DNA of 7,879 bases from a virus (taxonomy: Duplodnaviria > Heunggongvirae > Uroviricota > Caudoviricetes), in IMG/VR virus record IMGVR_UViG_2671180456_000014; one strand, given 5' to 3'. The notes beneath the pieces were generated by a model. It was not told the origin of the DNA, ran no database searches, and saw only the letters and a program-made list of their open reading frames with translations. How positions within the stretch are numbered: position 1 is the first letter of the stretch; each line of letters opens with the position of its first letter. Position numbers and translations under genes: made by a program. Shown in pieces: positions 642 through 7,879 of the stretch.

Positions 642-768
642 GCTACGAAAGAAATCTGGATGTCTCAGGCGACGAAAGTCATCATAATTTTCCCCGCTCA
701 CCTGTCCGACAACCGCTGGTTGGATTCCACCAGCTTCCCGATGTTTTTTCTATATAAAGGCGAATGCA

Positions 769-881
769 GCCGTTTCCCGAAAAAATCCTGGCCGTTTCCC
801 GTCGGCTCATGAATGCGTTCCTCGCCGTTTCTGAAAATTTCCCTGCGGCAGCTGGTGGCTATAGAGAAAGGGCCGTTTCTG
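769..881. repeat. iteron-like direct repeats (GCCGTTTCY), 4 copies
   Basis: GCCGTTTCCC at 769-778 and 791-800, GCCGTTTCTG at 824-833 and 872-881 (last copy lies inside the gene A terminator hairpin). Same orientation and same core as the array at 4373-4501. Confidence 0.5.
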
Positions 882-894: not shown

Positions 895-1377
895 TTACAC
901 GCCATCAAGGATGTGGATGCGGTTGCTTGCGTATACATTCAGCATAAAGTTAGCGCAAAACAGTTTCCATGTATCAACGCCAGCGGTATACGTAATGTTT
1001 TTGCATTTAATCGCATTGTTGGCGATCCGCATCCCCTGCGATACTGCTTCATCGTCGGAAAATTTGAACGACGATTGAGTTTTAATCCAGACAGAAATCT
1101 GCGTAGCGAACTCAATCAGCTTGGACTGGCAGAATCGCCCGGAGCGCACCGGAAAGACGAACGTTCCGAATCCAGAATTTACCACATACGCTTTCTCAAA
1201 TACCCGCGAGTAACGACGATTGCCAATGATGTCGCGTGCAATAATGCATTTTTCTTGTGCTGACAGTTCTACCGTCTCATTGTCGCGCCATGCACCAAGT
1301 ACTCGTTTTTCAATGTCAGAGAACGTTACAGCGATATTGCCATGTGCGGGTGCGTTTACAGTAGCGATAAAATTCAT
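895..1377 (-). CDS. hypothetical protein, 160 aa (cassette gene A)
   Basis: ORF track 895-1377; ATG at 1377-1375 preceded by AAGGA with 7-nt spacer; own promoter motif and own terminator. No family recognised. Confidence 0.6.
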   Translation of the reverse strand: MNFIATVNAPAHGNIAVTFSDIEKRVLGAWRDNETVELSAQEKCIIARDIIGNRRYSRVFEKAYVVNSGFGTFVFPVRSGRFCQSKLIEFATQISVWIKTQSSFKFSDDEAVSQGMRIANNAIKCKNITYTAGVDTWKLFCANFMLNVYASNRIHILDGV

Positions 1378-1433
1378 GATTAATTCCTTATCGTAAATAA
1401 CAAATTGTTTTCTTGTTGGTGTTAATTATCGTT
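1378..1433 (-). promoter_or_regulatory. conserved cassette promoter and 5' leader (copy A)
   Basis: Sense strand: cGATAATtaacaccaacaagAAAACAATTTGTTatttacgatAAGGAattaatcATG. -10 GATAAT at 1425-1430; C/A-rich leader with palindromic core AACAAATTGTT (1399-1409); SD. Confidence 0.5.
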
Positions 1434-1552
1434 GTACGAATAAGGCGTCAAAGTGGAAAGTTGCGGTAGCCGGACGGGAACAGGTGGGTTTGTCGGTTGC
1501 CTGGAGGTAAGAGGTTGGTGTTTTTAGCCTGCGGGAAACAGGATGGTCATTT

Positions 1553-1576
1553 AAGGCCACCAGCATTGGTGGCCTT
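1553..1576 (-). terminator. stem-loop 5 nt after gene B stop (putative terminator or 3' stabiliser)
   Basis: AAGGCCACCA-gcat-TGGTGGCCTT 10-bp stem; no clean U-tract after it on the minus strand (uuaaaugacc). Contains the Chi octamer on the minus strand (CCACCAGC at 1557-1564). Confidence 0.4.
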
Positions 1577-1581
1577 ACTCT

Positions 1582-1863
1582 TTAGTGTAGCAGACCGATG
1601 TCGATGGTATCCCCTGAATCATCCACACGGATCATCAGCATGGCGAAGGCGTTTAGTGGATAGCTTGCGTGCCATTCAGGGAAGCGGTCATCTCGCATGA
1701 AGTCGGCAATGTCGTAAACGCAGCCCTCAAAGTGGAAGAATCGCGTGCTTACCTGCTCGTCATATTCCACATGATCCATTTCTTGCTGTTCTGTTTCCGG
1801 CAAGTCCAGCCATGATTCAAGGAATACATTTTGTGCTTTAGGGGTAATGGTGAAATCAGTCAT
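1582..1863 (-). CDS. small strongly acidic hypothetical protein, 93 aa (cassette gene B)
   Basis: Start chosen at ATG 1863-1861 (MTDFTITPK...) because GAGGA sits 7 nt upstream; the longer track ORF (to 1995) would run through the promoter motif. About 20 Asp/Glu versus 5 Lys/Arg by my count. Confidence 0.6.
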   Translation of the reverse strand: MTDFTITPKAQNVFLESWLDLPETEQQEMDHVEYDEQVSTRFFHFEGCVYDIADFMRDDRFPEWHASYPLNAFAMLMIRVDDSGDTIDIGLLH

Positions 1864-1917
1864 GAGCATATCCTCACTGCGTAAACATGTTGTTTTCTTG
1901 TTGGTGTAATTATCGCA
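1864..1917 (-). promoter_or_regulatory. conserved cassette promoter and 5' leader (copy B)
   Basis: Sense: TGcGATAATtacaccaacaagaaaacaACATGTTtacgcagtGAGGAtatgctcATG. Extended -10 (TG + GATAAT, 1909-1914 with TG at 1915-1916); palindromic AACATGTT core. Confidence 0.55.
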
Positions 1918-2010
1918 GTGTAGATAAGGCATAAAAGAAGTTAATACAGGCTGAATACACAAGAAAGGTTCTGGAAGTTGATAGCCAGGTTTCAAACTAA
2001 CCTTCGGTTA

Positions 2011-2047
2011 TTAAAAGTCATTTAAGACCACCAATGCTGGTGGCCTT
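2011..2047 (-). terminator. hairpin terminator after ORF C'
   Basis: AAGACCACCA-atgc-TGGTGGCCTT stem (2024-2047, one G-U pair in RNA), followed on the minus strand by AAAUGACUUUUAA. Same stem as 1553-1576 but with the 4-nt loop inverted. Contains Chi GCTGGTGG on the plus strand (2036-2043). Confidence 0.5.
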
Positions 2048-2052
2048 AATAA

Positions 2053-2196
2053 TTATCGCCCGATTACGCTAAGGATCTTTTCCTCAACTGATTTGTTGTT
2101 GCGACTAAACTGCCTTGCGTATCTGATGACAGAAGAGGCGTTTCGCTTTCTGACCATCTCGGCTCTCTCCTTCAGGCGTTTCTTGAAATCGCCCAT
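2053..2196 (-). CDS. small basic ORF, 47 aa (C'), translationally coupled to gene C
   Basis: MGDFKKRLKERAEMVRKRNASSVIRYARQFSRNNKSVEEKILSVIGR. ATG at 2196-2194 lies 2 nt after the TAA of gene C (TAAatATG); stop at 2053-2055, 5 nt before the conserved hairpin. Below the ORF-track length cutoff; called by hand. Confidence 0.3.
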   Translation of the reverse strand: MGDFKKRLKERAEMVRKRNASSVIRYARQFSRNNKSVEEKILSVIGR

Positions 2197-2198
2197 AT

Positions 2199-2573
2199 TT
2201 ACCACCAGGCGCAGAAGGTCAGTCTGTTATTGTGAAAGTCGTGGTTCTTAATCAGATCTTCCACAAGCTCTTTCAACTCCCCCACATCATGCCAGTAACC
2301 TTCATCGTACTCCTGACTGCCGAAGAAAAAACCTTCCCGGGTAGGCAAGTACTCTTCGCAATTACTTTCGTTTATGTGCATCAAATGAGCCTTCAGAAAA
2401 CAAATGTCATTCATCGTTAATTCTAAAAGCTCACAATTTTCGACTTCACCTACGTTGCGCTCCATCCACCCAACGAGCGCATTGAACTTACGGAAGTAAG
2501 CAACCTGCTTTCTGGATGCCTCGTTATTCAGATCGTTTTTAGGCTGTGTCTCGATATAGATATCAAGTCCCAT
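2199..2573 (-). CDS. acidic hypothetical protein, 124 aa (cassette gene C)
   Basis: Start chosen at ATG 2573-2571 (MGLDIYIE...) with AAGGAAA 5-8 nt upstream; alternative GTG start at 2615 gives the 138-aa track ORF. Confidence 0.55.
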   Translation of the reverse strand: MGLDIYIETQPKNDLNNEASRKQVAYFRKFNALVGWMERNVGEVENCELLELTMNDICFLKAHLMHINESNCEEYLPTREGFFFGSQEYDEGYWHDVGELKELVEDLIKNHDFHNNRLTFCAWW

Positions 2574-2650
2574 GATGGTTTCCTTATTAAGTTGCTTCAG
2601 TGAAATCATTTTCACAAATCAGATAAGGCAGAAAACAAATTGTTATCGGG
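2574..2650 (-). promoter_or_regulatory. upstream region of gene C with one copy of the palindromic core
   Basis: Sense: ccGATAACAATTTGTTTTCtgccttatctg... Core at 2631-2644. Arrangement differs from the other cassettes and the -10 is not clear. Confidence 0.3.
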
Positions 2651-2682
2651 CATAATAAAATGGCGCGGTTTACGCGCCATTT
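2648..2682 (-). terminator. Rho-independent terminator of gene D
   Basis: AAATGGCGCG-gttta-CGCGCCATTT 10-bp stem (2658-2682), followed on the minus strand by UAUUAUG; 8 nt after the gene D stop. Confidence 0.6.
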
Positions 2683-2690
2683 AAAGAGGA

Positions 2691-3086
2691 TTAAGCGAAT
2701 ACGCTTTCAGGGATTAAGGTGTCAGCAGGAATGCCGGAGGTAATGCGCAGACCATACTGGCCAATCCAGGCGGTGTTGGTATTCAGGTTGGAGGCGAATA
2801 CGGTGTTAACCATATTCATCATTGGTTCAAACACCTCTTCATCAACCTGGCGGAAGTAGTTCTCGATTTTCAGCAGCAGCGGGTCAGTTGCATCGAAAAT
2901 AGACTGGTATTGAGTCTCGTACTCGCCGCCGGAGGCATCACCTTTACGCACGATCGTACTGGCCTGGACTTCGGCGCCAGTTTCGGTGTTGTACGTAACA
3001 ACGGTGATTTTTGCCACATTCTTACCTTCGGCGGTTTCAGAGGCATAGTAAACATCAACTGTCAGTTTTTCGCGTTTAACGGTCAT
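2691..3086 (-). CDS. hypothetical protein, 131 aa (gene D)
   Basis: Start ATG 3086-3084 (MTVKREKLTVDVYY...) with GGAGAG SD; the track ORF extends 22 codons upstream across the promoter. Has its own sigma70-type promoter rather than the cassette motif. Confidence 0.6.
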   Translation of the reverse strand: MTVKREKLTVDVYYASETAEGKNVAKITVVTYNTETGAEVQASTIVRKGDASGGEYETQYQSIFDATDPLLLKIENYFRQVDEEVFEPMMNMVNTVFASNLNTNTAWIGQYGLRITSGIPADTLIPESVFA

Positions 3087-3110
3087 TTCACTCTCCGTAG
3101 TGTTTTGGTT

Positions 3111-3147
3111 ATTTTTATATTCTATGATCGTAAGTATGTACTTACAA
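3111..3147 (-). promoter_or_regulatory. sigma70-type promoter of gene D with overlapping inverted repeat
   Basis: Minus strand: -35 TTGTAA (3147-3142), 17-bp spacer, -10 TAGAAT (3124-3119). Inverted repeat GTAAGTA-tg-TACTTAC (3130-3145) overlaps -35 and spacer. Confidence 0.55.
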
Positions 3148-3150
3148 TAC

Positions 3151-3180
3151 AAAAAAAAGCCCCGTAAGGATGGCGGGGCT
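3151..3180 (-). terminator. Rho-independent terminator of gene E
   Basis: Minus strand: AGCCCCG-ccatcctta-CGGGGCT followed by UUUUUUUU (the A8 run at 3151-3158 on the plus strand). Confidence 0.7.
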
Positions 3181-3214
3181 GTCGTACGGTCGACTAATTA
3201 CCACTTGCACATTA

Positions 3215-3526
3215 TCAGGCTATTGCCATCACTGATGCTCTCTGAATTTCTTGCTGGGCCACGCGGTTAACTTCCATCAAAGCCAGTTCGAGCTGATGTT
3301 CCGGCCACATTCTTTGAAATGCCATCCAGCCTTTTCCACGCTGGCGACGAACATTCATTACATAACGAGTAAAGGTGTTTTTATCGAAAGACACCGCTGT
3401 TTCACGGAACAGACGAATAGAGGTTCCATTGGCAACGATGTCCAGCAAAGTTAATTGAGCAACCAGCGCAGGCTTCTCTTTTCTCTTCTGGTCTTTGTCC
3501 AGACCAAGAACCAATGATTTTTTCAT
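3215..3526 (-). CDS. small basic hypothetical protein, 103 aa (cassette gene E)
   Basis: Start ATG 3526-3524 (MKKSLVLGLDKDQKRKEK...) with GGAG 5 nt upstream; TGA stop at 3215-3217. Lys/Arg-rich N-terminus and RRQRGKG stretch. Confidence 0.6.
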   Translation of the reverse strand: MKKSLVLGLDKDQKRKEKPALVAQLTLLDIVANGTSIRLFRETAVSFDKNTFTRYVMNVRRQRGKGWMAFQRMWPEHQLELALMEVNRVAQQEIQRASVMAIA

Positions 3527-3573
3527 TACAACTCCGTAAACAACTTGTTTTCTCAATGGCGTAAATAATACCA
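3527..3573 (-). promoter_or_regulatory. conserved cassette promoter and 5' leader (copy E)
   Basis: Sense: TGgTATTATttacgccattgagAAAACAAGTTGTTTacGGAGttgtaaATG. Extended -10 (TG + TATTAT, 3565-3570); palindromic core 3538-3554. Confidence 0.5.
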
Positions 3574-3639
3574 GTAAGAAAACGGCTACAAAGCATATTG
3601 ATCAGGCGCATGAGCGATATGCAGGTTCTTCCCTGCGGC

Positions 3640-3670
3640 TATAGAGAAATTAAGCCAGCATTGCTGGCTT
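3640..3670 (-). terminator. hairpin terminator of gene F
   Basis: AAGCCAGC-att-GCTGGCTT stem (3652-3670) followed on the minus strand by AAUUUCUCUAUAG; same ctatagaga flank as the gene A terminator. Confidence 0.5.
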
Positions 3671-3679
3671 TGGTTGGGG

Positions 3680-4009
3680 TTACTCGAATACTTCAAGAAA
3701 CTCCTGAACGTCCCAATGCTGGACGAGGTGAAGATAGACCTTAGAAATAACGTCATTCTCGCTATCGCATGTGAAGTAGTACTTCTGGCTGCGGTTGTAT
3801 GTGTCCACACAAAATTCGCTCATATCCATAAAGTCAGCATCTTCACCCATGTCGCAAATCATCAAAGCAGGTGCGTCATCACGAGTCATCAGCTCAAGCA
3901 CCCACCGCGAATTGATCAGAGTGGAAGACCAACCTTCTAACTCATAAAACTGATCAAACTCTTTTTGAGTTAATTTCTTAATTTGGTTGATGTCGATATT
4001 TGCAAACAT
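3680..4009 (-). CDS. small strongly acidic hypothetical protein, 109 aa (cassette gene F)
   Basis: Start ATG 4009-4007 (MFANIDINQ...) with AAGGA 7 nt upstream; the longer track start (4030) falls inside the leader motif. About 22 Asp/Glu versus 8 Lys/Arg by my count. Confidence 0.6.
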   Translation of the reverse strand: MFANIDINQIKKLTQKEFDQFYELEGWSSTLINSRWVLELMTRDDAPALMICDMGEDADFMDMSEFCVDTYNRSQKYYFTCDSENDVISKVYLHLVQHWDVQEFLEVFE

Positions 4010-4056
4010 AAAGCAATCCTTAAACAACATGTTTTCTTGATGGTGTTATTATCGCA
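4010..4056 (-). promoter_or_regulatory. conserved cassette promoter and 5' leader (copy F)
   Basis: Sense: TGcGATAATaacaccatcaagaaaACATGTtgtttAAGGAttgctttATG. Extended -10 GATAAT at 4048-4053 with TG at 4054-4055. Confidence 0.55.
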
Positions 4057-4372
4057 ATAACGCACAGGCGAAAAAGAGTTTTATTCCGGTGAATGTGGTT
4101 TTGGCAGTGAGTTTTCAGGTTCAGTACCGAGTACACTTTTTACATTATTCTGATTTAGTGGCCGAAGGTGGCTGGTGGGCAGAATAATCATCTCCCCGAA
4201 AACCTACTGAAATCGATTGTGACCCGTTGGCTGTCTGGCACAATTACGCTGTAGCTGGGCATTCAGAGGGAATCCAGCGGTAAGTAAGTTCGCCTGCACG
4301 TGAGCGCCTCTCTTCTTCCCGCACATTACAGGTGGGCAGCCGCAACTCTCCCTCACGCTATACCGGTACGCC

Positions 4373-4501
4373 GCCGTTCCTGAACCGGCATCGAGCCTTT
4401 TCCCGAAATCCACACAGGCAACTCGACCGTTTCCCTGAAAACCTCCAGCCGTTCCCCGAAGGCAACCCAGCCGTTTCTGTAGCGGGATGCAGCCTTTTCC
4501 C
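4373..4501. repeat. iteron-like array: 6 direct repeats at about 22-bp period
   Basis: Plus-strand GCCKTTYCC cores begin at 4373, 4395, 4426(7), 4448, 4470, 4492 (spacings 22, 31, 22, 22, 22). Minus-strand reading is GGRAAMGGC. Confidence 0.6.
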
Positions 4502-4559
4502 TGTATGGACCGAAGGCTGACCGTAGGGGTGTTACGGGGGATAAAATCAGGAGTTGAAT

Positions 4560-4590
4560 AAATACGAAAAAGGAGGCGACACCCCTCCTT
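4560..4590 (-). terminator. Rho-independent terminator, no ORF upstream
   Basis: Minus strand: AAGGAGG-ggugucg-CCUCCUU followed by UUUCGUAUUUAUU. Lies between the orphan promoter motif and the iteron array. Confidence 0.5.
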
Positions 4591-4623
4591 CCCTCCCCAC
4601 TTATACATACCTGTCTTGTTCGC

Positions 4624-4657
4624 TATACATGTTGTGTTTTCTTCGTGTTTTATCTGT
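4624..4657 (-). promoter_or_regulatory. orphan (ORF-less) copy of the cassette promoter and leader motif
   Basis: Sense: agATAAAAcacgaagaaaacacaACATGTatagcg aligns with cGATAATtaacaccaacaagaaaacaaTTTGTT; -10 is degenerate (GATAAA). No credible ORF before the terminator at 4560-4590. Confidence 0.35.
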
Positions 4658-4699
4658 TTCAACCTCTCTATAGGCGTTAATGCTCACTCCTTCCAGAAC

Positions 4700-5460
4700 G
4701 TTCTATACGGCGACTATTTCTGTTGGTGAATTGGGTGTGTTGTTTTCTCTGTCGGTGTATGTGGTTTCGTTAGTTTTGCGGTGGTTCTTCTATGGGGTGT
4801 TCTCGTCGTTTTGGTGATTGTTCTTCTCCGTGTATGGAGTAATGGCAGGTGGGCGATTGCTTTCGTTATTGTGTTTGAGTTGTTTGTCTGGAGTGTGTGA
4901 AAGGCTTTTGTAGTTATTCGTGTGTTGGGTAATGGCGTTTCCCGTGATTGTTATGTTTCGTGTCTTTTGGGATTGAGAGAAGCCTTGCGGTTACAGGCTT
5001 CGTTGGGGTTTCAGTGATTCTGGTGTTTCTTCGCTGTTTGGGGAATGGCGTATCGTGGGTATTGCGCGTATGAATGTTTTCGGATTGCCTGTGAAAGTTA
5101 GGTTGGTTGTCCGGTAGCCTGGGAAGAAGAGGTGGGTCTTTTCGGTAGCCTGCCATAAAGAGGTTGGTTGTTTTGGGTAATGGCATATGTGTTATTTAGT
5201 TGTTTTGTTATGCCTGAAAATAAGTTGTTTATATGGTTGTGTAACGCAACGGGAACGATTTTGAGCGTGTGTTTTTGTTGGTAGTGTGTTGGGTCGTCTG
5301 TGGTGAAAATTGGACGCTGTGGCGCTGTCTGCTGCGTAGAGTTACGGGTATAAGCAGTGATGTGTGAAAACGTCAATTTTTTAGACCAAATCGGGTGAAA
5401 GCGTTGATGTTTCGTTGATCTGTTATTCAGTTGTTTTCTTGATTGTATAAACAACTATAA
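4700..5460. repeat. strongly G/T-skewed non-coding region of degenerate intergenic-module repeats
   Basis: Plus strand is about 80% G+T in sampled stretches. Recurrent GGTAATGGC units near 4842, 4931, 5044, 5180; 5113-5185 aligns with the region upstream of promoter A (1464-1540); degenerate promoter-motif copies at 5274-5290 and 5431-5445. No credible ORF on either strand. Confidence 0.55.
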
Positions 5461-5518
5461 CTTATTGATATTTAAGGATGTGATTGCGGGTATGGAAGGG
5501 GAGTAGTGGCGATCAACG

Positions 5519-5538
5519 GATTCTTATAGAAAAGAATC
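5519..5538. other. inverted repeat downstream of gene H
   Basis: GATTCTT-atagaa-AAGAATC 7-bp stem; no U-tract on the minus strand, so not a canonical terminator. Confidence 0.3.
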
Positions 5539-5564
5539 AAATTGTGACCGCCATTATCAATGTT

Positions 5565-6299
5565 TTACTTAGTTTTGTTTAGCAGAGAGAGAATTTCATC
5601 ACTAATTTCACTCGCCTGTTTGATAGCCAATGCAGTTACCTCTTCTATGGTTGGTGACTGTTGATGCTCATATTTGGTTTCGGTTATGACAATGTGTTCT
5701 TCACCAGAATTTGCGCATAGTGCCGCATTGACGATAAGGTTTGAGTAAGAATTTAGCAGAGCACTGTTGATGAACGCTTTCACGGTATTACTGTCTGCAC
5801 CAAATACATCTTTTCTGACCGCTTCAGCCTCACAGCGAACCCCTGCAGCAACATCGTGAAGAACATGTATGGCCTTGGAGCTTGTTTGTTCACAGTACTC
5901 AATCATTATTGTCGAATTGTTCTGTTCAACAAACGATCTGATGCCTGACGATTTACCCATAGCATCGAAGGCAGCGTGACCCGCACTAGTAGAGATATCT
6001 TCATAGAGTTCTTCATCGCTATCTTTTTCTTCAGGTGTCGAGGTGTCTTCATCGTCGTAATAGATATTGCCTTTAATCAGTGTCTTGGACACTTGATATA
6101 AACAATAAGAAACGAGATTTAAGCATTGGATTTTAGCTGTATTGTCCTTTGTCGCCTCGCTCTTCAGTTCTTTCGCTTCTTCAGTAAGGCTGTTGATAAG
6201 ACTTTGTATTTTTTCCAACGCGTTAGGTGCACACTCCGCGTTGTCCATAAAGAATTTATAACCAGTTCCAGGGATTTCTAAACTTTTCAACTTTTTCAT
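5565..6299 (-). CDS. hypothetical protein, 244 aa (gene H), AT-richer than its surroundings
   Basis: ORF track 5565-6299; ATG 6299-6297 with AGGA about 11 nt upstream; 45 nt after gene G with no promoter motif of its own, so probably co-transcribed. Acidic patch YYDDEDTSTPEEKDSDEELYED. No Walker, HTH or transmembrane signature seen by eye. Confidence 0.6.
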   Translation of the reverse strand: MKKLKSLEIPGTGYKFFMDNAECAPNALEKIQSLINSLTEEAKELKSEATKDNTAKIQCLNLVSYCLYQVSKTLIKGNIYYDDEDTSTPEEKDSDEELYEDISTSAGHAAFDAMGKSSGIRSFVEQNNSTIMIEYCEQTSSKAIHVLHDVAAGVRCEAEAVRKDVFGADSNTVKAFINSALLNSYSNLIVNAALCANSGEEHIVITETKYEHQQSPTIEEVTALAIKQASEISDEILSLLNKTK

Positions 6300-6344: not shown

Positions 6345-6644
6345 TTACCAGTTCCAGCACTCAAGCCCTTCAACGACCGGTGCACCACAATCAAAATGTA
6401 CAGAGTCAAAGCCTACATCAAGTACTTTCTGAATGTTAGCAATCGCGCCTTCGGATATACCATATCGACGCAAGTCGTCTTTCCAGACATCATCCTGTAA
6501 CCCGGCGTGGACAATACAACCGCCGTCAATTTGCGAAACCCAATCCAGCTCATTGCTTGCGATCATGAATCGACGAGCATCTTCCTCTGATGTATGAGAT
6601 GAACTGATCAATGCCACCTGGTAGGCTTGGGTAATGTTCAACAT
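6345..6644 (-). CDS. small acidic hypothetical protein, 99 aa (cassette gene G)
   Basis: Start ATG 6644-6642 (MLNITQAYQ...) with GGAG 8 nt upstream; the track uses an upstream GTG at 6653. TAA stop at 6345-6347. Confidence 0.6.
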   Translation of the reverse strand: MLNITQAYQVALISSSHTSEEDARRFMIASNELDWVSQIDGGCIVHAGLQDDVWKDDLRRYGISEGAIANIQKVLDVGFDSVHFDCGAPVVEGLECWNW

Positions 6645-6722
6645 TTCAACCACTCCGAAACAATTTGTTTTCTTATGTGGCTTATTATCTCAATTAACAA
6701 AAGGCAGAAAACAAATTGTTTT
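6645..6722 (-). promoter_or_regulatory. conserved cassette promoter with two palindromic cores (copy G)
   Basis: Sense: AAAACAATTTGTTTTctgccttttgttaatTGaGATAATaagccacataagAAAACAAATTGTTTcGGAGtggttgaaATG. Extended -10 GATAAT at 6684-6689; palindromic cores at 6658-6671 and 6709-6722 flank it. Confidence 0.55.
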
Positions 6723-6805: not shown

Positions 6806-7879
6806 TTACTTAACCTGGTGGCCTGGTTTAGCACCAGCATCCGGGCTTAACAGGAAGATATCTTTCCCGCCGGGGCCAGCAGCCATCACCATGCCTTCGG
6901 AGATACCGAAGCGCATTTTACGCGGTGCCAGGTTAGCCACCATAATGGTGTGACGACCAATCAGTGCCTGTGGATCTGGATAAGCGGAACGGATGCCTGA
7001 GAAGACATTACGCTTTTCACCGCCGAGATCCAGCGTCAGGCGTAGCAGTTTGTCAGAACCTTCTACAAACTCTGCGTTTTCAATCAGCGCCACGCGCAGG
7101 TCAACTTTGGCGAAGTCGTNNNNNNNNNNNNNNNNNNNNNNNNNNNNNNNNNNNNNNNNNNNNNNNNNNNNNNNNNNNNNNNNNNNNNNNNNNNNNNNNN
7201 NNNNNNNNNNNNNNNNNNNGTCAGGCGTAGCAGTTTGTCAGAACCTTCTACAAACTCTGCGTTTTCAATCAGCGCCACGCGCAGGTCAACTTTGGCGAAG
7301 TCGTCAAAGGTGATAGTTTCCTGAATCGGGTCGTCAGCCAGTGGGCCAGTTACCGGTGCGGCTGTGGCTTTCACTTCTTCTTTGGATGCTTCCACCAGTG
7401 CTTCAACCTGCTTCATATCGATGCGGTTATACAGTGCCTTGAACGGATTCACTTTATGGCCCAGCAACGGTTGCTGGATGCCATCCCAGGTTAGTTCTGT
7501 ATTGAGGAATGCCTCTGCACGTTCAGTCAGTTTTGGCAGTACCGGTTTCAGGTACGTCATCAGCACGCGGAACAGATTAATGCCCATAGAGCAAATCGCC
7601 TGCAGATCGGCATCGCGTCCTTCCTGCTTCGCCACCACCCACGGAGCCTGTTCATCGACATAGCGGTTAGCCAGGTCAGCCAATGCCATGATTTCACGGA
7701 TAGCTTTACCAAATTCGCGGCTTTCCCATGCTTCGCCAATCACTTCAGCGGCATCAGTAAAGGTTTTGTACAGTTGCGGGTCAGCCAGTTCGCCTGCCAG
7801 CACGCCGTCAAAACGCTTGTTGATAAAGCCTGCATTACGAGAGGCCAGGTTAACCACTTTGTTCACGATATCGGCATTC
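6806..7879 (-). CDS. metG: methionyl-tRNA synthetase, 3' portion (runs off window; interrupted by assembly gap)
   Basis: Minus-strand translation gives ...[105 protein letters not shown], which I recognise as the enterobacterial MetG C-terminus (tRNA-binding domain). TAA stop at 6806-6808. The apparent frame change is fully explained by the 100-N gap plus 85-bp duplication (185 bp, not a multiple of 3). Confidence 0.9.
7035..7304. repeat. 85-bp exact duplication flanking the gap (7035-7119 = 7220-7304), assembly artefact
   Basis: Identical sequence gtcaggcgtagcagtttgtcagaacc...ggcgaagtcgt on both sides of the N run; collapsing one copy and the gap restores a continuous metG reading frame. 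Confidence 0.9.
7120..7219. other. scaffold gap (100 N)
   Basis: Run of exactly 100 n characters. Confidence 0.97.

What the first reader, a model, noticed from the sequence alone, without database searches (positions are those of the whole stretch)
4700..5460. About 800 bp of extreme G/T strand skew made of decayed cassette junctions
The plus strand is about 80% G+T in sampled stretches, has no credible ORF on either strand, and contains degenerate copies of the cassette promoter (5274-5290, 5431-5445) and of the region upstream of promoter A (5113-5185 aligns with 1464-1540). It therefore looks like a tandem pile-up of empty promoter modules. Because the genes are on the minus strand, any read-through RNA here is C/A-rich and G-poor, the composition of Rho utilisation (rut) sites, so the region could act as a Rho-dependent insulator between the G-H module and downstream cassettes. 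It could equally be a landing pad for cassette exchange by homologous recombination between junction repeats.
Basis: partly seen in the sequence, partly recalled or inferred. Interest (0 to 1): 0.65.

Follow-up and report, generated by a model that had tools for sequence, protein, structure and literature searches.

The report
Conserved gene-free C/A-rich tract in phage-plasmids
A roughly 1-kb gene-free stretch of an E. coli phage-plasmid (SSU5/pLF82 type) is built almost only of G and T on one strand; it is conserved across about 800 related plasmids, is not decayed junk, and most likely acts as a long Rho-type transcription stop that also carries repeated boxes with no known binding partner.

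Summary
The window comes from an SSU5-like phage-plasmid of E. coli, 98% identical to pLF82 / phage Cyrano. The G/T skew is real. G+T is 71% over 4700-5460 and 72-79% over 4700-5300. The tract lies 7 SD from the mean of the 112-kb replicon and is its only such outlier.

There is no positionally conserved ORF on either strand, no codon periodicity, and no Pfam, PHROG or Rfam match.

The tract is not decayed. It is syntenic and equally skewed in Salmonella, Enterobacter and Klebsiella relatives. It is as conserved as the flanking protein genes or more so (61-67% against 60-66% nucleotide identity), with blocks 70-80% invariant. Only about a quarter of it resembles cassette junctions.

On the transcribed (minus) strand the RNA would be C-rich, G-poor and structure-free for about 800 nt. 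It starts with a conserved hairpin that has no U-tract. Published LF82 RNA-seq shows expression falling from up to about 590 FPKM in the upstream gene to about 0 inside the tract.

Best reading, at confidence 0.4: a Rho-dependent stop/insulator that carries conserved repeated boxes of unknown ligand.

Rival readings are a lytic-cycle cis DNA site, a lytic ncRNA, and a functionless pile-up of junction remnants. I found no description of the tract in the searched literature.

The parts
5507..5553 (-). Boundary hairpin HP1, directly after the stop codon of the upstream gene (5565). The outer stem pairs UGGCGGUCA with UGAUCGCCA and the inner stem pairs GAUUCUU with AAGAAUC. No U-tract follows. This is where conservation among relatives begins, whatever the upstream gene is.
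   Evidence: alifold E -11.2, z -5.5; 14 pairs, almost invariant, no compensatory changes
5460..5506 (-). C-rich, nearly G-free run just 3' of HP1 (17 C and 2 G in 47 nt). Candidate Rho loading site.
5426..5455 (-). Pseudo cassette junction. It copies the cassette 5'UTR motif (ATCAAGAAAACAAC), but the -10 hexamer is not intact.
   Evidence: HMM score 9.3, above all shuffles
5346..5376 (-). Invariant promoter-like element P2. It has an A-tract, then TTGACG, a 17-18 nt spacer and TTATAC(C). It fails the strict sigma-70 scan because T is missing at the last -10 position. Silent in lysogens. Two TCAACG boxes lie just upstream at 5402-5418.
   Evidence: (invariant columns)
5199..5230 (-). Copy of the genome-wide palindrome AAACAAnTTGTTT, followed by GAAAACAA.
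5081..5168 (-). Tandem 31-nt repeats of the form ACCnACCTCTT-N5-CAGGCTACCG. There are two good copies (5112-5137 and 5143-5168) and one degenerate copy. Copy number is 1-3 in close relatives. A second pair lies at 1464-1519.
   Evidence: (D4)
4820..5184 (-). Four copies of a ~27-nt module, GCCATTAC(Y)C(M)AWACACGGAGAAGAAC, starting at 5184, 5049, 4936 and 4846. They are spaced 90-135 nt apart, with 4-5 copies in relatives. The 4846 copy is invariant in 16 sequences. The spacers between modules are C/A-rich and poorly conserved.
   Evidence: D2, D6, D7; found nowhere else in the replicon
4697..4727 (-). Conserved block TTTCACC..AGTCGCCGTATAGAGCGTT.
4567..4598 (-). Homopurine G-run GGGGAGGGAAGGAGGGG overlapping a hairpin followed by a T-run. 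This is terminator-like in the E. coli lineage and marks the end of the skewed tract.
   Evidence: z -6.2; 3 pairs with compensatory changes
4370..4505 (-). Array of about 6 iteron-like direct repeats, C(A/G)GGGAAA(A/C)GGCTG, spaced 20-32 bp apart. Conserved in all relatives. A second, smaller array lies at 730-850.
   Evidence: (D3, D8)
4040..5565 (.). The whole gene-free locus, as left unannotated by NCBI PGAP in E. coli, Enterobacter, Salmonella and Klebsiella relatives (1.4-1.5 kb in each).

Best explanation
The tract is a conserved non-coding control region of enterobacterial SSU5-type phage-plasmids. All neighbouring genes are read from the window's minus strand. On that strand the tract encodes about 800 nt of untranslated RNA made almost only of A and C, so it cannot fold.

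Proposed mechanism. RNA polymerase leaving the upstream, lysogeny-expressed accessory gene (5565-6299) transcribes hairpin HP1 and then a C-rich, G-poor, ribosome-free RNA. Rho loads on this RNA and releases the polymerase. Exonucleases trim the RNA back to HP1, which protects the upstream mRNA. The tract would thereby insulate the downstream iteron array and the array of small self-promoted genes from read-through.

What is shown: the composition, the lack of ORF and of RNA structure, the conservation, and the in vivo drop in RNA level. What is inferred: that Rho is the agent.

The embedded conserved boxes (27-nt GCCATTAC modules, 31-nt tandem repeats, and the silent promoter-like P2) are under selection and are not explained by a plain rut site. 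I infer that they bind a phage or host factor that tunes or lifts the stop in the lytic cycle. That step is a guess.
For: The sense strand is 29-37% C and 7-15% G, with MFE/nt of -0.03 to -0.05 against a mean of -0.205 (sd 0.066). Consensus folding energy is about 0 across 9 relatives between the two end hairpins. The tract holds the longest C>G run in the 112.6-kb replicon: 698 windows against 188 for the next longest. There is no conserved ORF and no codon periodicity, so no ribosomes would shield the RNA. HP1 is a conserved hairpin without a U-tract, followed by a run of 17 C and 2 G. From my own knowledge of Dar and Sorek 2018 (not checked here), this is the 3'-end signature of Rho-dependent transcripts. 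In LF82 RNA-seq, CYRAN_102 reads 5.6-9.2 and CYRAN_103 reads 2.3-4.3 log2(FPKM+5) in all 10 samples, where 2.32 equals 0 FPKM. The strict scan finds no canonical sigma-70 promoter inside the tract on either strand. The skew is retained in every lineage even though sequence identity is only 61-67%.
Against: A rut site needs only about 80 nt, whereas here about 800 nt and several sequence-specific boxes are conserved. U is depleted as well as G, which Rho does not require. A terminator-like hairpin at the far end (4567-4593) suggests that some transcripts cross the whole tract. The RNA-seq drop could equally come from termination at HP1 or from rapid decay. The data are from lysogens only, and I did not verify that the library was strand-specific. 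No Rho-inhibition data exist. Acinetobacter relatives of the same phage-plasmid supergroup have no such tract.
Confidence: 0.4

Rival explanations
1. A cis-acting DNA site used in the lytic cycle, either an origin of lytic replication or a terminase/packaging recognition region. In this reading the iteron array (4370-4505), the 31-mers, the 27-nt modules and the dyad HP1 are protein-binding sites, and the strand asymmetry is a by-product or helps keep single strands hairpin-free.
For: Four different repeat families are concentrated in one 1.5-kb gene-free locus and occur nowhere else in the replicon. The locus is a conserved island between variable accessory genes. Counts of plasmids carrying the tract match counts carrying the terminase gene almost 1:1 in Escherichia, Enterobacter, Salmonella, Citrobacter, Cronobacter and Shigella. 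Yersinia pMT1 keeps the plasmid replicon but has no skewed tract; from my own knowledge pMT1 is a defective phage. The plasmid oriR has different iterons and lies next to the rep gene. The element encodes its own replisome and recombination genes. From memory, the iteron core CGTTTCC equals the core of the lambda cosB R sites.
Against: There is no AT-rich unwinding element (GC 0.41-0.60 across 4000-5600) and no DnaA box. Module spacing is irregular at 90-142 nt and not in helical phase. No initiator gene lies adjacent. The small terminase has no Nu1-type domain, and the terminase genes are 13 kb away. The virion ends are unknown. IS1 and IS3 insertions in the tract exist in natural plasmids.
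Confidence: 0.2
2. A discrete lytic-cycle non-coding RNA of about 770 nt, running from promoter-like P2 (start near 5340) to the hairpin/T-run at 4567-4593. It would act in trans as an unstructured decoy for a single-strand RNA-binding factor, or in cis as an antitermination leader for the downstream cassettes.
For: An invariant TTGACG-17/18-TATAC element with an upstream A-tract sits at the 5' side, and a terminator-like hairpin with compensatory changes sits at the 3' side. Silence in lysogens would fit a repressed lytic promoter. The same-orientation repeated modules would suit a multivalent RNA.
Against: P2 lacks the conserved last T of the -10 hexamer and fails the strict scan. No transcript has been observed. 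Known sponge motifs are not enriched: (ARN)n for Hfq and GGA for CsrA. There is no similarity to the fliC leader, the target of FljA-type proteins, even though the element encodes an FljA homologue. An untranslated C-rich RNA would itself be cut short by Rho.
Confidence: 0.15
3. One reading: a pile-up of dead cassette junctions with no sequence-specific function, persisting as a spacer and as a homology patch for recombination between cassette arrays.
For: 5040-5185 is paralogous to the region upstream of the gene at 895-1377, and 5426-5455 and 5199-5230 copy junction motifs. The 31-mer copy number varies from 1 to 3. L007 is a mosaic with crossovers in conserved boxes. IS insertions are tolerated.
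Against: The tract is more conserved than neighbouring protein-coding genes, whose third positions are saturated. Blocks are invariant in 16 sequences from at least four genera. Length is stable in 222 E. coli plasmids. Most of 4600-5040 shows no junction similarity.
Confidence: 0.15

Closest known systems
Rho-dependent terminators (rut site plus downstream release zone, e.g. lambda tR1, the rho leader), and Rho silencing of prophage genes
   Same: C-rich, G-poor, unstructured, untranslated RNA. A hairpin without a U-tract at the retained 3' end. A sharp fall of RNA level in vivo. Placement between an expressed gene and downstream genes.
   Different: About ten times longer than needed. Sequence-conserved across genera. 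U is depleted too. It contains ordered repeated boxes. Rho dependence has not been tested.
PeSL mobile regulatory cassettes of T4-type phages (early promoter plus stem-loop flanking small ORFs; Arbiol et al. 2010, cited from my own knowledge)
   Same: The surrounding array consists of small genes, each with its own conserved promoter/5'UTR and stem-loop. Junction motifs recur inside the tract. Recombination has occurred at conserved boxes.
   Different: Only 2-3 junction-like modules are detectable in the tract. Most of the tract is a separate repeat family and carries no ORFs.
Injection stop signal region of phage T5 (about 1 kb of non-coding repeats beside an array of small pre-early genes)
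   Same: A large conserved non-coding repeat region next to many small early-type genes in a large siphovirus.
   Different: The T5 region shows no G/T strand skew. No terminal repeat or two-step injection is known for SSU5-type phages. I did not compare the sequences.
Iteron-type replication origins (P1/F oriR, lambda ori, P4 ori/crr)
   Same: Direct-repeat arrays at two places 3.6 kb apart (4370-4505 and 730-850).
   Different: No AT-rich element, no DnaA box and no adjacent initiator gene. The plasmid's own oriR, with different iterons, is elsewhere.

Membership tests
Rho-dependent terminator | At least 70-80 nt of RNA with C well above G | tested here: met
   C 29-37%, G 7-15% over about 800 nt. 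A run of 698 windows with C/G >= 1.5, the longest in the replicon.
Rho-dependent terminator | RNA free of stable secondary structure | tested here: met
   MFE/nt -0.03 to -0.15 against a mean of -0.205. Consensus alifold energy about 0.
Rho-dependent terminator | Untranslated, so no ribosome shielding | tested here: met
   No conserved ORF and no codon periodicity.
Rho-dependent terminator | Transcript level falls across the site in vivo | tested here: met
   LF82 RNA-seq supplement: CYRAN_102 at 5.6-9.2 against CYRAN_103 at 2.3-4.3 log2(FPKM+5). Lysogens only.
Rho-dependent terminator | Read-through when Rho is inhibited (bicyclomycin, rho/nusG mutants) | not testable with these tools
   No such dataset was found for a strain carrying this element.
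Intrinsic terminator | GC-rich hairpin followed by a U-run | tested here: inconclusive
   HP1 (5507-5553) has no U-run. The distal hairpin at 4567-4593 meets the rule in the E. coli lineage but has a weak stem and a poor U-run in relatives.
Iteron-type replication origin | Regularly spaced iterons, an AT-rich unwinding element, host-factor boxes, and a cognate initiator nearby | tested here: not met
   Iteron-like repeats are present. GC is 0.41-0.60, there is no DnaA box, and no initiator is adjacent. Yersinia pMT1 keeps its plasmid replicon yet has no skewed tract.
Cassette junction / PeSL-like module | Extended -10 promoter, conserved 5'UTR ACACCAACAAGAAAACAAnTTGTTTACGGAG, and a start codon | tested here: not met
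   The junction HMM hits only 5426-5455 and the palindrome at about 5195-5250. The -10 hexamers are not intact and no ORF follows.
Described structured RNA families (Rfam 15) | Match to a covariance model | tested here: not met
   No hit in the tract at E <= 1.
Protein-sponge RNAs (CsrB/CrcZ type) | Enrichment of GGA or (ARN)n motifs | tested here: not met
   Observed counts do not exceed shuffle means.
Small hydrophobic peptide / type I toxin arrays (plus strand) | Conserved short ORFs with a ribosome-binding site | tested here: not met
   ORFs starting at the ATG of GGTAATGGC are 7-50 aa, differ between relatives, and have an SD-to-ATG spacing of only 2 nt. No codon periodicity.

The most novel reading that the evidence does not exclude
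In the lytic cycle the silent promoter P2 fires and produces an abundant ~0.8-kb RNA made almost only of A and C. This RNA would act as a decoy for Rho or another host single-strand RNA-binding factor. That would be an RNA-based anti-termination or host-takeover device, with the conserved 27-nt and 31-nt boxes serving as loading or trapping sites.
Probability: 0.07. Interest if true: 0.85.

Novelty: new variant of a known kind. Interest (0 to 1): 0.45.

Why it matters
SSU5/pHCM2-type phage-plasmids are common in E. coli, Klebsiella, Salmonella and Enterobacter and carry accessory and resistance genes. This tract is their most extreme compositional feature. It is present in essentially every member that still has a terminase gene, and I found no description of it in the literature searched.

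If it is a Rho-dependent insulator, it shows how these elements separate lysogeny-expressed accessory genes from a block of small, independently promoted genes. It would also be a natural, very long rut-type sequence that could be reused as a genetic insulator.

If instead it is the lytic origin, a packaging site or a decoy RNA, it marks a cis element needed to engineer or disable these elements.

In either case, annotators should stop calling the spurious ORFs CYRAN_103, CYRAN_104 and SSU5_108 in it.

Tried and rejected
1. Protein coding on either strand. Frames are not conserved, there is no codon periodicity, and there are no Pfam or PHROG hits. The plus-strand mini-ORFs at the ATG of GGTAATGGC are not conserved.

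2. A known RNA family. There is no Rfam hit.

3. Plasmid replication origin. oriR, with ACCGCTGACAGCATAC iterons and GATC/DnaA elements, lies at the rep gene. Yersinia pMT1 keeps that replicon but has no skewed tract.

4. Hfq or CsrA sponge. The motifs are not enriched.

5. Target or decoy of the element's FljA homologue (Pfam Flag1_repress, E 1.5e-84). I verified the fliC leader sequence, but its similarity to the tract equals that of shuffles, P 0.25-0.39.

6. Analogy with the T5 injection stop signal. That region has no skew.

7. Lambda-like cos site. The small terminase has no Nu1-type domain, and the large terminase resembles the P74-26/T4 type. The CGTTTCC resemblance rests on memory only.

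8. Composition conserved at depth. An Acinetobacter member of the supergroup has no comparable tract, with max |z| of 3.5. My first choice of accession, p3ABAYE, was not a phage-plasmid.

9. Mutational explanation of the skew. The substitution spectrum was uninformative: A<->C changes are 27-31% at saturation, close to the composition-based expectation. The rest of the replicon has G>C on the same strand.

10. R-loop or G-cluster origin on the plus strand. G is only 31% and T is the major base. This was judged by eye and not pursued.

11. Inferring virion or contig ends from truncated IMG/VR loci. Locus lengths reflect data storage rather than contig ends.

12. Literature searches for the termini, the origin or transcriptomes of SSU5-type phages found nothing relevant.

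Full report
**Origin of the window.** The queried stretch (4600-5560) matches 243 complete E. coli genomes, always on plasmids, at up to 98.6% identity. It also matches 836 plasmids of Klebsiella, Escherichia, Enterobacter, Salmonella, Citrobacter, Cronobacter and others. Among phages it matches Cyrano (= pLF82), PhiR41_1, Salmonella phage SSU5 and several Klebsiella phages. The window is therefore part of an SSU5-type phage-plasmid. The metG/apbC genes at its right end really are carried by the element. In a closely related complete replicon (pEc2-51408, 112.6 kb), almost all genes run in one direction, and that direction is the window's minus strand.

**The observation.** 4700-5460 is 71% G+T. 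The 100-bp windows between 4701 and 5300 are 71-79% G+T. GC skew reaches +0.54 and AT skew -0.64. Across the whole replicon, 500-bp windows average 0.50 G+T with sd 0.033. This tract reaches 0.26 on the gene-sense strand, about 7 sd from the mean, and nothing else comes close.
- NCBI PGAP leaves 1.4-1.5 kb unannotated here in E. coli, Enterobacter, Salmonella and Klebsiella relatives.
- Other annotators placed mutually inconsistent ORFs on opposite strands.
- Open frames are frequent because stop codons are rare at this composition, but their positions and frames differ between relatives.
- Mismatches are spread evenly over the three codon phases, 0.30-0.35. Flanking genes show the usual pattern of 0.67-0.82 identity at positions 1 and 2 and 0.37-0.47 at position 3.
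- There are no Pfam, PHROG or Rfam matches.

**Similarity to cassette junctions.** The neighbouring small genes share a well-conserved junction: GCC(T/G)TTT, then TGnGATAAT or TGGTATTAT, then ACACCAACAAGAAAACAAnTTGTTTACGGAG, then ATG.
- A profile built from 24 such junctions finds only two places in the tract: 5426-5455, and the palindrome near 5195-5250.
- blastn adds 5091-5174 matching 1447-1524 at E 1.6e-7. This shared element is a tandem 31-nt repeat upstream of the gene at 895-1377.
- The copy claimed at 5274-5290 was not recovered.
- The stretch 4600-5040 has no junction similarity. It holds its own family of four ~27-nt modules, GCCATTAC..ACACGGAGAAGAAC, 90-135 nt apart.

**The tract is conserved, not decayed.** The tract is syntenic, and 63-77% G+T, in SSU5, pHCM2, Enterobacter, Kluyvera and Klebsiella elements.
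- The window is 61-67% identical to these relatives over the tract. Thirty-column blocks are 70-80% invariant, and many positions are invariant in 16 sequences.
- The orthologous protein genes on either side are only 60-66% identical, with third positions near saturation.
- Conservation begins exactly at a hairpin (HP1, 5507-5553) whatever gene lies upstream. It runs through the skewed tract, a G-run with a hairpin (4567-4598) and an array of about six iteron-like repeats (4370-4505).
- The modules, the 31-mers and the iterons occur nowhere else in the replicon.
- Per genus, the number of plasmids with the tract matches the number with the terminase gene almost one to one. The pairs are Escherichia 224/206, Enterobacter 90/91, Salmonella 49/49, Citrobacter 25/25, Cronobacter 9/10 and Shigella 7/7.
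- Yersinia pMT1 keeps the plasmid replicon but has no skewed tract. From my own knowledge, pMT1 is a defective phage.
- An Acinetobacter member of the supergroup has nothing comparable.

**RNA-level properties.** The sense (minus-strand) RNA would be 29-37% C and 7-15% G. Its folding energy per nucleotide is -0.03 to -0.15, against a window mean of -0.205 (sd 0.066).
- Across nine relatives the consensus folding energy is about zero between two structured ends. Those ends are HP1 (z -5.5) and the distal hairpin (z -6.2).
- The run of 78-nt windows with C/G >= 1.5 is 698 long, against 188 for the next longest in the replicon.
- HP1 has no U-tract and is followed by a stretch with 17 C and 2 G.
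- The strict scan finds no sigma-70 promoter inside the tract. There is, however, an invariant promoter-like element (TTGACG, 17-18 nt, TATAC) at 5346-5376.

**Experimental data.** The supplement of the LF82 prophage paper (PMC9928086) lists log2(FPKM+5) per Cyrano gene in ten lysogen samples.
- CYRAN_102, the gene ending at 5565, reads 5.6-9.2.
- CYRAN_103, an ORF call covering 5098-5454 inside the tract, reads 2.32-4.27, where 2.32 means zero.
- Transcription therefore stops, or the RNA vanishes, within about 110 nt of the stop codon.
- The internal promoter-like element is silent in lysogens.

**Interpretation.** The simplest reading that uses all the measured facts is a Rho-dependent stop. 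The tract offers untranslated, unstructured, C-rich RNA preceded by a protective hairpin, and RNA is lost in vivo.

This reading does not explain several things:
- why about 800 nt and several sequence-specific boxes are kept;
- why U is avoided as well as G;
- why a terminator-like hairpin closes the tract.

For these reasons I hold it at 0.4.

I keep three rivals:
- A lytic-cycle cis DNA site, either an origin or a packaging site, at 0.2. It is favoured by the density of repeat families and by the association with intact phage genes. It is weakened by the lack of an AT-rich element, DnaA boxes, a nearby initiator and regular spacing.
- A discrete lytic ncRNA from the silent promoter to the distal hairpin, at 0.15. 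No transcript is known, and sponge motifs are not enriched.
- A functionless pile-up or recombination patch, at 0.15. It is favoured by the few junction remnants, the 31-mer copy-number variation (1-3 copies), a mosaic plasmid with crossovers in the conserved boxes and tolerated IS insertions. It is contradicted by the conservation.

**Leads that failed.** The element encodes a clear FljA homologue. According to PMC2652032, FljA-type proteins block fliC mRNA translation. I verified the fliC leader sequence, but its similarity to the tract is no better than to shuffles. The T5 injection stop region has no skew. The terminase is not lambda-like. Literature searches found no description of this tract, of SSU5-type virion ends or of a lytic origin.

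**Verdict.** The 'rut/insulator' part is the best available explanation but is untested. As far as I could search, the feature is an undescribed, lineage-wide non-coding element. I rate it a new variant of a known kind, with moderate interest.

Noticed in passing
window 7035-7304: The run of 100 N (7120-7219) is flanked by an exact 85-bp duplication: 7035-7119 equals 7220-7304. Two overlapping contig ends inside metG were joined with a gap, which is an assembly artefact.
   Followed up: yes
window 6806-7879; L002 10380-13671: The phage-plasmid carries full copies of the housekeeping genes metG (methionyl-tRNA synthetase) and apbC/mrp. In LF82, apbC is expressed about 9-fold above the prophage background.
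   Followed up: partly
window 4370-4505 and 730-850: Two arrays of iteron-like direct repeats (plus strand GCCGTTTCCC(T)GAAA) lie 3.6 kb apart and bracket the array of small genes. They are conserved in Enterobacter, Salmonella and Klebsiella relatives. From memory, the core CGTTTCC equals the core of the lambda cosB R sites. The ligand is unknown.
   Followed up: partly
L004-L006 (pEc2-51408): 14386, 15115, 27610, 27661, 30954, 31857, 32621, 41762, 72602, 76630, 105314; in the window e.g. 1395-1410, 4021-4036, 6660-6675: The palindrome AAAACAAnTTGTTTT occurs at 11 places, mostly 25-55 nt upstream of a start codon. These include the small terminase, the DnaB-like helicase and the ParA-like gene. 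It could be a phage-wide operator or a 5'UTR hairpin.
   Followed up: partly
window 727-734(-), 851-858(+), 1557-1564(-), 2036-2043(+), 4171-4178(+): The window holds five Chi octamers (GCTGGTGG). Two sit inside the stem of gene-end hairpins (GGCCACCAGCATTGGTGGCC). Two form an inverted pair flanking the 730-850 iteron array. The whole replicon has 21 Chi sites against about 3 expected, with no orientation bias.
   Followed up: partly
L004 35504-36028 (-), outside the window: A conserved gene of the element is a strong FljA homologue (Pfam Flag1_repress, E 1.5e-84), a post-transcriptional repressor of phase-1 flagellin. The phage-plasmid may therefore silence host flagellin. It is also present in SSU5 and pMT1.
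   Followed up: partly
window 895-4060 and 6345-6700: The small genes each have a conserved extended -10 promoter (TGnGATAAT or TGGTATTAT), a conserved 5'UTR and a hairpin after the stop codon. This resembles the PeSL mobile regulatory cassettes of T4-type phages. The gene content of the array differs between relatives.
   Followed up: partly
A2 columns 505-600; window 5081-5168; L019, L035: The 31-nt tandem repeat varies from 1 copy (L035) to 2 (window) to 3 (L019) among elements that are 94-98% identical.
   Followed up: yes
L007 (E. coli pE16EC1016-4), aligned to window 5576-4486: The tract of this plasmid is a mosaic: SSU5-like, then window-like, then SSU5-like. The switches fall at the 31-mer boxes (about 5130-5170) and at the best conserved 27-nt module (about 4800-4857).
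   Followed up: yes
window 4582-4598 (-): A conserved 17-nt homopurine run, GGGGAGGGAAGGAGGGG, ends the G-poor tract. It contains a KOPS-like GGGNAGGG and could form a triplex or a G-quadruplex.
   Followed up: no
L012 (K. pneumoniae pSCKLB555-2, 172 kb) 3600-4455: About half of the tract (window 5112-5560) survives, still G/T-skewed, inside large non-phage Klebsiella plasmids next to DUF262 and type I restriction genes. These are probably remnants of cointegrates.
   Followed up: no
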